From an uncultured Acidobacteriota bacterium (GTDB lineage Bacteria > Acidobacteriota > Thermoanaerobaculia > Multivoradales > JAGPDF01), in the NCBI GenBank assembly GCA_963700315.1, contig CAVOXC010000011.1, positions 288,308 to 352,307 of the forward strand: a DNA stretch of 64,000 bases, in the 5' to 3' direction. The translations under genes and the position numbers were made by a program. The notes under the pieces are model-generated. The model did no database searches. It had not been told where the DNA came from and saw nothing but the letters and a program-made list of their open reading frames with translations. Below, in pieces: positions 18,341 through 21,491 of the stretch (positions within the stretch are counted from its first letter, which is position 1; every line of letters begins with the position of its first letter).

Positions 18341-18517
18341 TCAGACGTCGAGGTTGCGGACGTTGAGGGCGTTGGTTTCGATGAACTCGCGGCGGGGTTG
18401 CACCACGTCGCCCATCAGGATGGTGGTGATGTTGTTGGCTTCGACCTCGTCCTGGACCTTGACCTGGAGCAAGCGGCGCTTGGTGGTCCCTTTTGTGGTC
18501 TCCCAAGACTGCTCGGC
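18341..18517 (-). pseudogene. Orphan duplicate of the gyrB 3' end (last ~58 codons plus stop)
   Basis: A 177-nt direct repeat of 19053-19229, with about 22 mismatches by hand alignment. It encodes ...[47 protein letters not shown] and lies 22 nt upstream of gyrA. Confidence 0.85.
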
Positions 18518-18537
18518 AAGCCTGCAGGCTGGGCGCG

Positions 18538-18822
18538 TCATGGTTCGGCGACCTCGGAGGCGTGGCGGCCGCGGGGGGCGGGGGCGCCGCGGAGGAGGCC
18601 TTCGGTCGAGAGGTCTTCGTCGACCTCCGGCCAGTGGATGCCGTAGCCCGCGCCGGCGAGCTCCCAGCGCGCGCGCTGTTCCGGGGTCGCTTGGAAGAGG
18701 CGCGGATACCAGGAGAGCGGCACGCTGATCGTGCGGCCGTCCATCAGGTCGACGATCAGGGAGTCCGCGTCGAAGCGCACGTTGCGCACCCGTTCGTCAG
18801 CGCTGGTAGCCAAAATACCCAT
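18538..18822 (-). CDS. DUF2442-family small protein
   Basis: [61 protein letters not shown] matches the DUF2442 pattern as I remember it. It overlaps the upstream DUF4160 gene by 26 nt. Confidence 0.7.
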
Positions 18823-19039
18823 GCCAGGCCTCCATCAGTTCCTCTCGCCGGCCCTCGACCAGCCGACCGATCTCGTTGAGCTCGTGCGCCGAGAAGCCGC
18901 GGTTCGCCGCGAGCCCCACCGGCGAGAGCCAGAACTTCGCCGAGAAGCGCTCGCGGTCGACGTGGACGTGCGGCGGCTCCGTTCCCTCGTGGCTGTAGAA
19001 GAAGATCCGGTACGGACCACTCCGCAGAAGCGTCGGCAT
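18797..19039 (-). CDS. DUF4160-family small protein
   Basis: MPTLLRSGPYRIFFYSHEGTEPPHVHVDRE...[24 protein letters not shown] shows the typical N-terminal MP..., the PPHxH core and the C-terminal helix of DUF4160. It starts 13 nt after the gyrB stop. Confidence 0.7.
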   Translation of the reverse strand: MPTLLRSGPYRIFFYSHEGTEPPHVHVDRERFSAKFWLSPVGLAANRGFSAHELNEIGRLVEGRREELMEAWHGYFGYQR

Positions 19040-19052
19040 GTTGGCCCGCCCA

Positions 19053-21491
19053 TCAAACGTCGAGGTTGCGGACGTTGAGGGCGTTGGTTTCGATGAACTC
19101 GCGGCGGGGTTCGACGAGATCGCCCATCAGGATGGTGAAGATGTTGTCGGCCTCGACGTCGTCCTGGACCTTGACCTGGAGCAGGCGGCGCTTGGTCGGG
19201 TCCATCGTGGTCTCCCAGAGCTGCTCGGCGTTCATCTCGCCCAGGCCCTTGTAGCGTTGGATCGACAGGCCCTTCTTGGCGCCGGCGTAGAGCGTCTCCA
19301 TCGCCTCGTCGAGCATCTCGTGCTCGGTCGGCTCGGCTGCGTCCTTTTTCGACGCCGGGTCCTCGAGCTTGCGCACCGTGAAGCTCTTGGCGGCGAGCGC
19401 CTCGAGCGACGGGCGGTCGCCGGCGAGCGCGCGGTACTCGACCGCGGTCACCAGATTCCAATCGAAGCGCACCCGGCGCTCGACGCCGTCGCGGCGCGAG
19501 AGGAACGAGATCACGCCGGTGCCGTGCTCCTCCTCGAACGAGGTCTTGACCTGGCGGAAGCCGGAGGCCTCGAGGATGTGGGCGACCGCCTCGACCTTGG
19601 CCGAGTCGGTGAGCGCCTTCTTGTCGCTCAAGCCGTGGAGCAGCGCCACCCGCAGCGCGTCTTCCGGATAGCCGCGCGTCACCAGCTTCGCCAGATTCTG
19701 GCGCAGCGTCTCGATCCGCTCGACGAAGCCGCCCAGCCGCTGCCCGCGCATCGCGCGGCCGTCGGCGACCGTGAGCTCCCAGCCGTCGCGGATGCGCTCG
19801 ACCAGGAACGCCTGATACTCGCGGTCGTCTTTCAGGTAGTTCTCGCGCCGCCCCTCGGCGACCTTGTAGAGCGGCGGCTGCGCGATGTAGAGGTACCCAC
19901 GCTCGATCAGCTCGCGCATCTGCCGGAAGAAGAAAGTGAGGATCAGCGTGCGAATGTGCGAGCCGTCGACGTCGGCGTCGCACATGATGATCAGCTTGTG
20001 GTAGCGCAGCCTCGCGATGTCGAAGTCGTCGCGCCCGATACCGGTGCCGAGCGCCGTGATGATCGTCCTGATCTCCTCCGACGACAGCATCTTGTCGAAG
20101 CGCGCCTTCTCGACGTTCAAGATCTTGCCGCGCAGCGGCAGGATCGCCTGGAACTTGCGGTCGCGTCCCTGCTTGGCGGTGCCGCCGGCCGAATCGCCCT
20201 CGACCAGGAAGAGCTCGGCGAACTCCGGGTTGCGCTCCGAGCAGTCGGCGAGCTTGCCCGGCAGCGCCGAGGCGTCGAGGGCCCCTTTGCGGCGGGTGAG
20301 CTCGCGCGCCTTGCGCGCGGCTTCGCGGGCGCGCGCGGCTTCGACGCACTTCTCGATCACCCGCTTGGCAATGCCGGGGTTCTCCTCGAAGAAGGTGCCG
20401 AGCTTGTCGTTCAACACTTGCTGCACCCACCCCTTGACCTCGGAGGAGACCAGTTTGTCCTTGGTCTGGGACGAGAACTTCGGGTCGTGGATGCGCACCG
20501 AGATGACCGCGGTGAGGCCCTCGCGGACGTCGTCGCCGGAGAGCGAGACCTCCTTCAGCGCCTTGGCGATCCCAGCCGACTGGGCATAGGCGTTGATGGT
20601 TCGGGTGAGCGCCGCCTTGAAGCCCTCGAGGTGCGTGCCGCCGTCGCGGTTGTTGATCGTGTTGGCGAAGGAATAGATCTGCTCGGCATAGCCGTCGTTC
20701 CACTGCAGCGCCGCCTCGCAGCGCTCCTCGATGCCGTCGCGCACCGTCGTCTCCTCGAAGGCGATCGGCTTCGGGTGGAGCGAATTCTTGTTGCGGTTCA
20801 GGTACTCGACGAACGAAGCGATGCCGCCGGCGTAGGAGAACTCGACCTCCTTGTCGGCGCGCTCGTCGGTCAGGCGAATCTTGATGCCCTTGTTGAGAAA
20901 CGCCTGCTCGCGCAGCCGTGTCGCCAGGATGTCGAAGCTGAACTCGAGCACCGAGAAGACCTCGGGGTCGGGCACGAAGCGCAGCTTGGTACCGGTCTTC
21001 TTCGACTTGCCGATCGCCGCGATGGGCGCGTCCGGCTTGCCGCGGCGGAAGGTCTGGAACCAGACCTGGCCGTCGCGCATGATCTCGAGCTCGAGCACCG
21101 CGGAGAGCGCGTTGACCACCGAGACGCCGACGCCATGCAGGCCGCCCGAGACCTTGTAGACGTTGTTGTCGAACTTACCGCCCGAGTGCAGCTCGGTCAT
21201 GATCACTTCGGCCGCCGAGCGCCCTTCGCCCTTGTGGGTGTCGACCGGGATGCCGCGGCCATCGTCCTCGATCGTCACCGAGTTGTCGGTGTGGATCGTG
21301 ACCTCGACCATCGTGGCGTAACCGGCCTGCGCTTCGTCGACAGAGTTGTCGACGACCTCGAAGACCATGTGGTGCAGGCCGGAGGCGTCATCGGTGTCGC
21401 CGATGTACATCCCGGGCCGCTTGCGAACGGCCTCGAGCCCTTTTAGAACCTTGATGTCTTCTGCGGTGTAGCTGGGCGCGCTCTTGGCCAA
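19053..21491 (-). CDS. gyrB: DNA gyrase subunit B
   Basis: [38 protein letters not shown], a Toprim domain EGDSAGG, and the C-terminus [15 protein letters not shown]. The likely start is the TTG at 21491 (GGAGAG 7 nt upstream), which yields [16 protein letters not shown]. The track ORF extends to another TTG at 21563. Confidence 0.95.

What the first reader, a model, noticed from the sequence alone, without database searches (positions are those of the whole stretch)
18341..19229. DUF4160/DUF2442 gene pair wedged between gyrB and gyrA, flanked by 177-bp direct repeats of the gyrB 3' end
The minus-strand order is gyrB (stop at 19053), 13 nt, the DUF4160 gene, the DUF2442 gene, a 177-nt copy of the gyrB 3' end (18341-18517), 22 nt, then gyrA. 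The remnant is still open to its own stop. It differs from the functional copy (19053-19229) at about 22 positions by hand alignment (~88% identity), including non-synonymous changes ([11 protein letters not shown]...[19 protein letters not shown] versus [11 protein letters not shown]...[19 protein letters not shown]). The remnant keeps the short spacer and GGAGA in front of gyrA, so it looks like the ancestral gyrB end. On that reading, the copy now completing gyrB arrived with the cargo. This is the footprint expected of integration into a gene 3' end with replacement of that end, but no recombinase is present. DUF4160/DUF2442 pairs have been flagged computationally as toxin-antitoxin-like, and I know of no demonstrated function. 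Their position inside the gyrase operon is notable because several TA toxins (CcdB, ParE) poison gyrase. That link is speculation.
Basis: partly seen in the sequence, partly recalled or inferred. Interest (0 to 1): 0.75.

Follow-up and report, generated by a model that had tools for sequence, protein, structure and literature searches.

The report
Toxin-antitoxin cassette lodged between gyrB and gyrA
A known type of toxin-antitoxin gene pair (DhiT/DhiA) sits between the two DNA gyrase genes of an uncultured acidobacterium, followed by a decaying spare copy of the gyrB end; relatives show this is an old recombination scar in a spot that keeps collecting defence genes, not a fresh integration.

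Summary
On the minus strand the order is gyrB, 13 nt, DUF4160, DUF2442, a 177-nt copy of the gyrB end (22 differences), 22 nt, gyrA.

The pair belongs to the DhiT/DhiA type II toxin-antitoxin family, validated experimentally in Dickeya and on Thermus plasmids. Its function is therefore not unknown.

About 20 related contigs (Thermoanaerobaculia, Acidobacteriota) show:
- The ancestral state is gyrB, 0-120 nt, gyrA.
- The cassette sits 13 nt after the gyrB stop in seven lineages, and both genes are under purifying selection.
- The remnant arose once. It was originally about 250 nt long and started at the dhiA stop.
- The remnant evolves neutrally and is patched by gene conversion, which explains a 55-nt identical tract in this genome.
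- Some lineages have the cassette without the remnant.
- A close relative (92% GyrA identity) has an empty site whose 25-nt spacer matches the one after the remnant.
- The same gap holds restriction-modification, TIR, Mrr, kinase and ParE genes, and a second DUF4160/DUF2442 subfamily, in other lineages.

No recombinase appears anywhere, and neither copy looks foreign. The best reading is a recombinase-free recombination scar in a toxin-antitoxin and defence hotspot. Interest is moderate.

The parts
19053..21563 (-). gyrB (836-aa ORF from a TTG; the true start may lie further in, since relatives are 812-867 aa)
   Evidence: Pfam matches to HATPase_c, DNA_gyraseB, Toprim and DNA_gyraseB_C. Syntenic with dnaA-dnaN-recF-gyrB in relatives.
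19053..19229 (-). Functional copy (F) of the repeated gyrB 3' end: the last 58 codons plus the stop
   Evidence: It keeps all universally conserved residues ([20 protein letters not shown]).
19040..19052 (-). 13-nt spacer between the gyrB stop and the dhiT start. Its length is the same in all seven lineages where this junction could be read.
   Evidence: Gene coordinates.
18797..19039 (-). dhiT: DUF4160 toxin gene, 80 aa
   Evidence: PF13711 at 9.5e-21. The invariant H17, E21, P22, H24, H26, D28 and R29 are kept. pN/pS is 0.17-0.32 against orthologues. The family was shown to be toxic in PMC8198452 and PMC12724237.
18538..18822 (-). dhiA: DUF2442 antitoxin gene, 94 aa, overlapping dhiT by 26 nt
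   Evidence: PF10387 at 1.8e-26. Matches PDB 3k8r at 3.7e-9. pN/pS is 0.12-0.31.
18538..18555 (-). 18-nt cargo-end motif GAGGTCGCCGAACCATGA (encodes ...EVAEP plus the stop). The same motif closes unrelated cargo genes at this site in relatives.
   Evidence: Single match in the window, against 0.02 expected by chance. Present in 13 related loci, and twice in each of L109, L111 and L112.
18518..18537 (-). Decayed, partly deleted 5' part of the original roughly 250-nt duplication (the junction with the dhiA stop)
   Evidence: Alignment with L111, L114 and L081.
18341..18517 (-). Remnant copy (R) of the gyrB 3' end: a pseudogene fragment. It lies inside an open 66-aa ORF (18341-18541) whose ATG overlaps the dhiA stop.
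   Evidence: PF00986 at 8e-14. Conserved GyrB residues are lost (WETTKGT, NITT, VQPRR). Changes assigned to remnant branches are 14 synonymous to 34 non-synonymous, not different from neutral (p=0.20).
18345..18399 (-). 55-nt tract of R identical to F 19057-19111: a recent gene-conversion tract
   Evidence: The same tract differs at 10 of 54 positions between F and R in relative L081.
18319..18340 (-). Native gyrB-gyrA spacer (22 nt), now lying between the remnant and gyrA
   Evidence: Aligns with the 25-nt spacer of the empty site in L119.
15820..18318 (-). gyrA
   Evidence: Pfam DNA_topoisoIV at 4.8e-168, plus the GyrA C-terminal repeats.

Best explanation
**What it is.** This is a chromosomal DhiT/DhiA (DUF4160/DUF2442) type II toxin-antitoxin cassette. 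It is housed in the gyrB-gyrA spacer of an uncultured Thermoanaerobaculia (Acidobacteriota) lineage, next to the replication-origin gene cluster. The toxin gene comes first. The antitoxin is expected to neutralise it and, as in Dickeya, to repress the operon.

**Transcription (inferred).** No terminator-like or promoter-like site separates the pair from gyrB or gyrA. It is therefore most likely co-transcribed with them.

**Origin of the repeat (inferred).** The 177-nt repeat is a recombination scar made once in an ancestor. A segment 'gyrB tail, 13 nt, dhiT, dhiA' still exists without any repeat in the more divergent relatives L107 and L110. This segment was recombined into a locus of the form 'gyrB, about 25 nt, gyrA'. 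There was one homologous exchange inside gyrB. The other joint was either illegitimate, placed right at the dhiA stop, or the segment first circularised and then entered by a single crossover. Either route left the resident last ~250 nt of gyrB stranded downstream. No site-specific recombinase was involved.

**What has happened since (shown).**
- The stranded copy drifts neutrally.
- It is patched from the functional copy by gene conversion.
- The gap has collected other defence genes in relatives.

**What the repeats make possible (inferred).** The two repeats give RecA a substrate for precise loss of the cassette. The sister lineage L119 has an empty site.
For: **Family assignment**
- HMM matches.
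- Toxin-first overlapping order.
- Experimental work on the family.
- Purifying selection on both genes: pN/pS 0.12-0.32.

**Ancestral state**
- Outgroups L088, L090-L093 and L095-L100 have gyrB and gyrA 0-120 nt apart with no cassette.

**Old residence at this site**
- The cassette sits 13 nt after the gyrB stop in the window, L081, L082/L083, L107, L110, L113 and the P0013 contig.
- Synonymous divergence of the cassette roughly tracks that of gyrB.
- The cassette's GC content is like that of its flanks.

**Single origin of the remnant**
- The window, L081 and L114 share the same junction with the dhiA stop and the same deletion.
- L111 and L114 share remnant-specific changes (TAC AAG to TGC GAG).
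- L120 keeps the junction although its cargo has been replaced.

**Neutral decay plus gene conversion**
-.

**Structure equals the sum of two alleles**
- The remnant side is colinear with the L119 empty site. The functional-tail side is colinear with cassette alleles that lack the remnant.
- Remnant-bearing cassettes cluster at 81-95% dhiA identity. L107, L110 and L109, which lack the remnant, are at 73-82%.

**No recombinase**
- The precomputed Pfam listings for the relatives' gaps show no integrase or transposase family; several cargo ORFs have no Pfam hit.
- There are no inverted repeats at the cassette ends.

**Loss or replacement of the cassette**
- L119 groups with the window and L081 at 100% bootstrap, yet its site is empty.
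Against: - The exact recombination route cannot be reconstructed. Gene conversion has homogenised the two copies within each lineage, so which tail was the donor's is not recoverable.
- Deep branching among the lineages is unresolved, with bootstraps of 26-56%. 'The remnant was gained once after the cassette was already there' therefore rests on cassette similarity and parsimony. Three independent losses of a useless remnant would fit too.
- Several relatives are short metagenome contigs with no core genes to place them (L111-L118).
- L081 is a frameshift-rich assembly.
- Co-transcription with gyrBA is inferred only from the absence of consensus signals.
- Toxicity of this particular pair is untested.
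Confidence: 0.6

Rival explanations
1. This is essentially the first reader's model. A site-specific integrative element with its own integrase targeted the gyrB 3' end and brought a surrogate end, as e14 and phage 21 do at icd. It later decayed until only the addictive toxin-antitoxin pair was left.
For: - The layout is gene tail, cargo, displaced tail, with an empty site in a relative.
- Toxin-antitoxin pairs are typical last survivors of decayed elements (general knowledge).
- The 55-nt identical tract could be read as an att core.
Against: - No integrase or transposase family appears in the Pfam listings for the gap in any lineage examined.
- The cargo in the window, L107 and L113 is exactly the two ORFs, with 13 nt on one side and 0-31 nt on the other. 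This leaves no room for decayed element DNA.
- The identical tract is not conserved: there are 10 differences in 54 positions in L081. It also lies at the 3' end of the repeat rather than at the 5' crossover position expected for the icd type.
- The cassette occurs at the same site without any repeat (L107, L110).
- No relative of the cassette was found in viral contigs.
Confidence: 0.12
2. The rearrangement was purely intragenomic. In a genome that already had gyrB-dhiTA-gyrA, the unit 'gyrB tail + dhiTA' duplicated in tandem, or by template switching during replication. The second cassette copy was then lost, leaving a stranded tail.
For: - The remnant starts immediately after the dhiA stop. 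This is the joint expected from a tandem duplication of that unit.
- Each remnant is closest to its own genome's functional tail.
- Tandem duplications are common in bacteria (general knowledge).
Against: - It needs a second, very precise deletion that removes 13 nt plus both genes and restores the native spacer in front of gyrA. That spacer matches the empty site of L119.
- No lineage shows the intermediate with two cassette copies.
- The similarity of each remnant to its own functional tail is equally explained by gene conversion, which is directly visible.
Confidence: 0.15
3. The remnant is kept because it works. Either it is translated as a small GyrB C-terminal peptide, coupled to dhiA, that binds GyrA or the toxin, or it carries the native promoter or leader of gyrA.
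For: - The remnant is an open frame in six lineages (66, 68, 47, 84, 52 and 50 aa).
- In four of the six (the window, L081, L111 and L113) it starts by a 4-nt overlap with the preceding stop; in L082 the TTG start I chose for the 47-aa frame also overlaps that stop.
- LMGD, PRR and FIE are invariant in all remnants.
- Raw pN/pS between remnants is 0.19-0.42.
Against: - When changes are assigned to branches, the remnant branches carry 14 synonymous and 34 non-synonymous changes (71% non-synonymous against 77% expected; p=0.20). The low raw ratios came from synonymous change on the functional branch.
- Universally conserved GyrB residues are destroyed in different ways in each lineage.
- The remnant was lost in L107, L110 and L109, and gutted in L120.
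- In L081, L082, L111 and L114 it is no longer next to gyrA.
- Stop codons are rare in 67%-GC DNA, so an open frame is weak evidence.
Confidence: 0.06

Closest known systems
DhiT/DhiA toxin-antitoxin system of Dickeya dadantii 3937 (DUF4160/DUF2442), and the 'persistence-enhancing module' of Thermus thermophilus plasmids
   Same: - The same two Pfam domains, in the same toxin-first order, as two short overlapping ORFs.
- Homologues at about 50% identity lie on 34 plasmids in PLSDB.
   Different: - Here the pair is embedded between two essential genes with only 13 nt upstream. It therefore probably lacks its own promoter region of the kind used in Dickeya (100 bp upstream).
- The ORF overlap is 26 nt, against 3 nt in Dickeya (Table 1 lists -3).
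- dhiA carries a site-specific C-terminal extension (...ASEVAEP).
- Activity of this pair is untested.
e14 and phage 21 integration into icd of E. coli (an element carries a substitute gene 3' end and the displaced end remains as a pseudogene). This comparison is recalled from general knowledge.
   Same: A functional gene end, cargo, then a displaced and diverging copy of the same gene end as a direct repeat. The host gene stays intact.
   Different: - No integrase is present.
- The cargo is only 515 nt.
- The identical tract lies at the 3' end of the repeat and is lineage-specific.
- The cassette also exists at the same site without a repeat.
Homology-facilitated illegitimate recombination, or single-crossover (Campbell-type) insertion of foreign DNA during natural transformation (general knowledge)
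   Same: - One end of the insert is seamless within a conserved gene.
- The other joint shows no homology.
- No recombinase is needed.
- The donor is plausibly a close relative.
   Different: The mechanism is inferred from the product only. The classic cases mostly delete recipient DNA rather than leaving a 250-nt duplication.
Defence and toxin-antitoxin hotspots between conserved core genes (variable islands at fixed chromosomal positions)
   Same: Across relatives the same gap holds the following:
- a type II restriction-modification pair;
- a TIR protein;
- an Mrr nuclease;
- a Ser/Thr kinase;
- a ParE-type toxin with a partner;
- an orphan antitoxin;
- a second DUF4160/DUF2442 subfamily.
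   Different: The hotspot is a 0-25-nt spacer inside the gyrB-gyrA pair of the origin-proximal gene cluster. No integrase or tRNA gene marks it.

Membership tests
[quoted passage not shown]
   E-value 9.5e-21, covering 64 of 65 model positions. H17, E21, P22, H24, H26, D28 and R29 are invariant in 38 homologues and present here.
DhiT/DhiA (DUF4160/DUF2442) type II toxin-antitoxin system | A PF10387 (DUF2442) gene lies immediately downstream on the same strand and overlaps the toxin gene (toxin-first order) | tested here: met
   E-value 1.8e-26, with a 26-nt overlap. The order is the same as in Dickeya.
DhiT/DhiA (DUF4160/DUF2442) type II toxin-antitoxin system | Both genes are maintained by selection, i.e. 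not decaying | tested here: met
   pN/pS is 0.12-0.32 across 6-7 lineages. In contrast, the L109 toxin has lost the motif.
[quoted passage not shown]
   Shown only for the Dickeya and Thermus members (PMC8198452, PMC12724237). No sigma-70-like site was found upstream here.
Integrase-driven integrative element with gene-end replacement (e14/icd type, tRNA-island type) | A site-specific recombinase is encoded within the element | tested here: not met
   Only two ORFs lie between the repeats. No integrase Pfam hit appears in the gap of any relative.
Integrase-driven integrative element with gene-end replacement (e14/icd type, tRNA-island type) | A short conserved identical core (att) sits at both ends | tested here: not met
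   The 55-nt identical tract is specific to this genome. L081 differs at 10 of 54 positions in the same stretch.
Integrase-driven integrative element with gene-end replacement (e14/icd type, tRNA-island type) | Direct repeats of the target gene end flank the cargo, and an empty site exists in relatives | tested here: met
Transposon or insertion sequence | Short fixed-length target duplication (2-15 bp), terminal inverted repeats and a transposase | tested here: not met
   The duplication is 177 to about 250 nt. No inverted repeats bracket the cassette, and there is no transposase.
Gyrase-poisoning toxin-antitoxin systems (CcdB, ParE) | Toxin homologous to CcdB or ParE, or shown to trap gyrase | tested here: not met
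   - DhiT has no Pfam hit other than DUF4160.
- It has no PDB sequence match.
- It has no structural match: the best Foldseek E-value is 1.2 for a model with pLDDT 85.
- In E. coli the paper reports strong filamentation for CcdB2 and mentions none for DhiT.

The most novel reading that the evidence does not exclude
The gyrB-tail copy is not just a scar. It is the working 'attachment arm' of a recombinase-free mobile cassette.

**Proposed mechanism.** RecA-mediated exchange between the two tails would excise a circle carrying 'gyrB tail + cargo'. After transfer, that circle could re-enter any relative by a single crossover in the near-invariant end of an essential gene. This would explain three things: why the site keeps swapping toxin-antitoxin and defence cargo, why a sister lineage is precisely empty, and why gene conversion keeps the 3' part of the remnant recombination-competent.

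**Hints that cargo is exchanged in defined units.**
- A conserved 18-nt cargo-end motif closes unrelated modules at this site.
- A gyrA-head duplicate exists in L109.
- A cutA-tail duplication around 5.4 kb of cargo, with no integrase found among the ORFs scanned, lies in the same window.

**Related reading.** The repeated capture of two different DUF4160/DUF2442 subfamilies plus a ParE-type toxin right behind gyrB might reflect a functional tie to gyrase or to supercoiling-controlled transcription.
Probability: 0.2. Interest if true: 0.7.

Novelty: new member of a known kind. Interest (0 to 1): 0.4.

Why it matters
- It documents in unusual detail the life history of a selfish two-gene cassette inside an essential operon: arrival, stranding of a gene end, neutral decay, repair by gene conversion, cargo swapping and precise loss. 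All of this is read from uncultured Acidobacteriota.
- It shows that a 0-25-nt spacer between gyrB and gyrA can act as a long-lived toxin-antitoxin and defence hotspot without any visible recombinase.
- It adds a large, vertically maintained chromosomal clade to the recently defined DhiT/DhiA family, whose toxin target is still unknown.
- If the homology-arm idea is right, conserved ends of essential genes could serve as generic landing sites for recombinase-free gene cassettes.

Tried and rejected
1. **Foreign origin of either tail copy.** Rejected. Of the 22 sites where the two window copies differ, I judged by eye from the alignment that the functional copy matches relatives at about 15 and the remnant at about 5. 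Both copies carry clade-specific states (PTKRR, KVQD).
2. **Remnant as a selected mini-protein.** The raw pN/pS looked low. After assigning changes to branches the remnant is neutral.
3. **Independent duplications in different lineages.** Rejected because of the shared junction, the shared deletion and the shared remnant-specific substitutions.
4. **Promoter and terminator scan of 18200-19400.** No promoter-like site was found. The three weak terminator-like hits do not lie between genes in a meaningful way.
5. **Toxin structure.** The AlphaFold model is good (pLDDT 85.3), but there is no PDB fold match (best E-value 1.2) and no PDB sequence match. The toxin's biochemical activity stays unknown.
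6. **GTDB species-representative scan with the GyrB C-terminus.** It found no close relative (best 54%).
7. **Viral contigs.** No relative of the cassette was found.
8. **Narrow HMMs built from the close homologues.** They found no second copy in the window, and none behind gyrB in the 80 distant genomes.
9. **Is the dhiA C-terminal extension itself derived from gyrB sequence?** The hand alignment was not convincing (about 8/15 and 0/9 matches), so the idea was dropped.
10. **Assembly artefact.** Rejected because independent assemblies show the same structure.

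
Full report
**1. Observation**

All features are on the minus strand of the window.
- gyrB runs from 21563 to 19053.
- A 13-nt spacer follows.
- An 80-aa ORF lies at 19039..18797.
- A 94-aa ORF lies at 18822..18538 and overlaps the previous ORF by 26 nt.
- A 66-aa ORF lies at 18541..18341. Its ATG overlaps the preceding TGA.
- A 22-nt spacer follows, then gyrA at 18318..15820.

Pfam assigns these ORFs as follows.
- The 80-aa ORF is DUF4160 (9.5e-21).
- The 94-aa ORF is DUF2442 (1.8e-26).
- The 66-aa ORF is the GyrB C-terminal domain (8e-14).

The direct repeat 18341-18517 / 19053-19229 has exactly 22 differences. The finding is therefore accurate.

Two details were not in it.
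- The differences are unevenly spread. One lies in the last 59 nt, which include a 55-nt identical run. The other 21 lie in the remaining 118 nt. Fisher's exact test on a 1/54 versus 21/123 split gives p=0.003.
- The remnant has lost residues that are invariant in every functional GyrB examined: LWETTMDP, the Phe of IFT, and VEPRR. It is a decaying fragment, not an alternative allele.

**2. The gene pair**

DUF4160/DUF2442 is no longer a family of unknown function.
- In Dickeya dadantii it is the DhiT/DhiA type II toxin-antitoxin system. DhiT inhibits growth in Dickeya and E. coli, and co-expressing the cognate antitoxin abolishes the toxic effect. The antitoxin alone lowers promoter activity by about half, and the toxin-antitoxin complex lowers it further. 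The gene order is toxin first (PMC8198452).
- On Thermus plasmids the same pair increases plasmid persistence. The second ORF is needed to tolerate the first (PMC12724237).
- DUF4160 also occurs as an effector domain in Menshen systems, with no known structural homologue (PMC12065111).

Results for the pair in this window:
- The invariant DUF4160 residues are present.
- Both genes are under purifying selection against orthologues, with pN/pS of 0.12-0.32.
- Homologues at about 50% identity lie on 34 plasmids.
- An AlphaFold model of the toxin is confident (pLDDT 85.3). It has five strands and two helices, and no fold match in the PDB.

The pair is a member of a known toxin-antitoxin family. 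The toxin's target is unknown.

**3. Relatives**

The organism belongs to the Thermoanaerobaculia (Acidobacteriota), judged from the names attached to the nearest GyrA proteins. About 20 related contigs were recovered by three routes:
- a metagenome scan with the lineage-specific part of GyrB;
- exact look-ups of cassette proteins;
- exact look-ups of GyrA proteins.

*Outgroups.* At GyrB distance 0.33-0.40, L088, L090-L093 and L095-L100 have gyrB and gyrA 0-120 nt apart and no cassette. This is the ancestral state.

*Ingroup.* The gap between gyrB and gyrA is highly variable.

| Locus | Content of the gyrB-gyrA gap |
|---|---|
| L081 | dhiT, dhiA, remnant, then 2.4 kb that includes a Ser/Thr kinase |
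| L082 / L083 | dhiT, dhiA, an orphan antitoxin (PF09720), a shorter remnant, a 279-aa ORF |
| L113 | dhiT, dhiA, remnant |
| L114-L118 | dhiT, dhiA, remnant, a TIR protein |
| L111 / L112 | 3' end of a 78-aa gene, a 5'-truncated dhiA, the longest remnant, then a methyltransferase plus a BsuBI/PstI-type endonuclease |
| L107 | dhiT, dhiA, 31 nt, gyrA; no remnant |
| L110 | Cassette without remnant |
| P0013 contig | Cassette without remnant (no DNA available) |
| L109 | Kinase, a degenerate dhiT, dhiA, a second DUF2442, Mrr |
| L087 | A different DUF4160/DUF2442 subfamily, 7 nt after the gyrB stop |
| L085 / L086 | Only the DUF2442 of that second subfamily, plus a ParE-type toxin and a partner on the other strand |
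| L120 | Two ORFs with no Pfam hit, plus a relic of the dhiA-end/remnant junction |
| L084 | Empty site |
| L119 | Empty site |

The spacer between the gyrB stop and the dhiT start is 13 nt in all seven lineages where that junction could be read.

**4. History of the repeat**

*Original extent.* The L111 remnant aligns with gyrB back to about ...[24 protein letters not shown]. The duplication therefore originally spanned about 250 nt and began right after the dhiA stop.

*Single origin.* Several features argue for one origin of the remnant.
- The window, L081 and L114 share the same junction and an internal deletion.
- L111 and L114 share remnant-specific changes at universally conserved codons (TAC AAG to TGC GAG).
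- L120 keeps the junction even though its cargo has been replaced.

*Concerted evolution.* Each remnant is nevertheless closest to the functional tail of its own lineage and carries its lineage-specific states. Together with the 55-nt identical tract in the window, this indicates repeated gene conversion from the functional copy. That tract differs at 10 of 54 positions in L081.

*Is the remnant under selection?* Raw pN/pS values between remnants looked low, at 0.19-0.42. I then assigned changes to branches, using other functional tails as reference.
- The remnant branches carry 14 synonymous and 34 non-synonymous changes.
- That is 71% non-synonymous, against a neutral expectation of 77% (p=0.20).
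- The functional branches carry 27.5 synonymous and 2.5 non-synonymous changes.

The remnant is therefore a neutrally evolving pseudogene fragment. Its open frame is not evidence of function in 67%-GC DNA.

**5. Which end is native**

The close relative L119 has 92% GyrA identity to the window. It groups with the window and L081 at 100% bootstrap. Its layout is gyrB, 25 nt, gyrA.
- Its spacer, TTTCCCGGAAAGAGCCGCAGACGAC, aligns with the 22 nt that follow the remnant in the window.
- Remnant plus spacer plus gyrA align contiguously with L119 at 90.1%.

The functional-tail side, with its 13-nt spacer and cassette, is the same as in cassette alleles that have no remnant.

The present structure is literally the sum of two alleles: a cassette allele (gyrB, 13 nt, dhiTA) and an empty allele (tail, spacer, gyrA).

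Remnant-bearing cassettes cluster at 81-95% dhiA nucleotide identity. The remnant-free L107, L110 and L109 are more distant, at 73-82%. Parsimony therefore favours a cassette that was already at this site before the duplication arose once. Three independent losses of a useless remnant cannot be excluded, because the deep branches are unresolved.

Neither tail looks foreign. Any donor was a member of the same clade.

**6. Mechanism**

*Shown*
- There is no recombinase, no terminal inverted repeat and no conserved att core.
- The cargo in the simplest alleles is only the two ORFs.
- One junction is seamless inside gyrB and the other sits at the dhiA stop.
- An empty site exists in a sister lineage.
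- Gene conversion occurs between the two copies.

*Inferred*

The structure arose when a fragment 'gyrB tail, 13 nt, dhiT, dhiA' from a relative recombined into an empty locus. There are two routes to the same product.
- One homologous crossover in gyrB plus an illegitimate joint.
- Circularisation of the fragment followed by a single crossover.

This needs one event. The intragenomic alternative is a tandem duplication of tail plus cassette, followed by loss of the second cassette. It needs a second, very precise deletion, and no intermediate was seen.

An integrase-driven element that later decayed is the least supported option.

The L119 empty site has two possible explanations.
- Precise deletion by recombination between the two tails, for which the identical 3' tract is an adequate substrate.
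- Replacement by an empty allele.

The pair is probably read through from gyrB into gyrA. No consensus promoter or terminator separates them, but this is weak evidence.

**7. The gyrase link**

*Points in favour of a link*
- Two DUF4160/DUF2442 subfamilies and a ParE-family toxin occupy the same gap in different lineages.

*Points against*
- The gap also collects restriction, TIR, Mrr and kinase genes. A hotspot explanation is therefore sufficient.
- DhiT shares no sequence or fold with CcdB or ParE.
- In E. coli the paper reports strong filamentation for the gyrase poison CcdB2 and mentions none for DhiT.
- Pfam's ParE_toxin model also covers RelE-like toxins.

The link stays speculative.

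**8. Verdict**

The structural reading is right. The implied recent integrative event, the 'unknown function' and the gyrase link are not supported.
- What is present is a new, clade-wide chromosomal member of the DhiT/DhiA family. It sits in a toxin-antitoxin and defence hotspot between gyrB and gyrA, and it carries an old, conversion-maintained recombination scar.
- Interest is moderate.
- The most novel reading not excluded is that the gene-end copy serves as a homology arm for recombinase-free cassette mobility. Supporting hints are an 18-nt motif that closes unrelated cargo modules, a duplicate of the gyrA start in L109, and a cutA-tail duplication around 5.4 kb of cargo in this same window.

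Noticed in passing
window 50238-50615 and 56063-56260 (+ strand): This is a second gene-end duplication in the same window.
- The last roughly 150-198 nt of cutA (CutA1, Pfam 8e-35) recur 5.6 kb downstream. Identity is 89% over 198 nt and about 97% over the last 150 nt, stop codon included.
- Between the two copies lie a sigma-70 region-4 gene, ORFs of unknown function and a 955-aa CarboxypepD_reg-repeat protein. No integrase was found among the ORFs of 120 aa or more that I scanned.
- The GC content is unremarkable.
- The footprint is the same as in the gyrB case.
   Followed up: partly
window 4132-4413, 35577-35700, 56337-56460: A MITE-like palindromic repeat with ends TGTCGTCCTGAGCGCAGCGAAGGA...TCCTTCACTTCGTTCAGGATGACA. 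It has three or four copies. One lies directly after the second cutA-tail copy, and one lies about 0.9 kb upstream of two tRNA-Ser genes (36605-36823).
   Followed up: no
window 18538-18555; L109 2244-2261 and 2542-2559; L111 87-104 and 353-370; L120 6822-6839: An 18-nt motif, RAGGTSGCNGARCCRTGA, encoding ...(E/K)VAEP plus the stop.
- It ends dhiA.
- It also ends an unrelated 78-aa gene (L120, L111) and a DUF2442 of the second subfamily (L109).
- Modules at this site therefore each close with the same motif.
- Type-1 DUF2442 homologues match only 82-95% of the window's DhiA, and one whose sequence I read (P0150) has a different C-terminus.
- It may be a cassette-exchange breakpoint. This is unexplained.
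   Followed up: partly
L109 1700-1770: A roughly 45-nt copy of the gyrA upstream spacer plus the first gyrA codons, including an exact 13-mer AATGACCGAGAAC. It lies between the kinase gene and the degenerate dhiT. It is a mirror-image 'gene-head' duplicate at the other border of the hotspot.
   Followed up: partly
L087 1553-2007; L086 2049-2300; L109 2296-2559: A second, BLAST-unrelated DUF4160/DUF2442 subfamily occupies the same position right after the gyrB stop. In L087 the spacer is 7 nt, and in L086 the start overlaps the stop (TGATG). In L085/L086 and L109 only its DUF2442 member remains.
   Followed up: partly
L086 2312-2826 (- strand): A ParE_toxin-family gene (PF05016, 2.3e-9) with an upstream 86-aa partner that has no Pfam hit. 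It lies between gyrB and gyrA on the opposite strand. The Pfam model also covers RelE-like toxins, so gyrase targeting cannot be claimed.
   Followed up: no
L120 6348-6839 and L111 1-104: A pair of small ORFs with no Pfam hit (83 aa and 78 aa) directly after gyrB. It replaces dhiT, and in L120 also dhiA. It is possibly another toxin-antitoxin-like module.
   Followed up: no
one search hit list (DUF2442 homologues): This DUF2442 subfamily is unusually conserved for an antitoxin. Proteins named from Altererythrobacter, Caulobacter, Sphingomonas and Sumerlaeota are 77-81% identical to it. The cognate DUF4160 toxins are about 61-70% identical.
   Followed up: no
L081 (ENA ERZ25039603 contig_35719), whole locus: The assembly is rich in frameshifts, with gyrA, gyrB, pntB and dnaA each split into several called genes. 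Its sequence was used only where the reading frames were intact.
   Followed up: no
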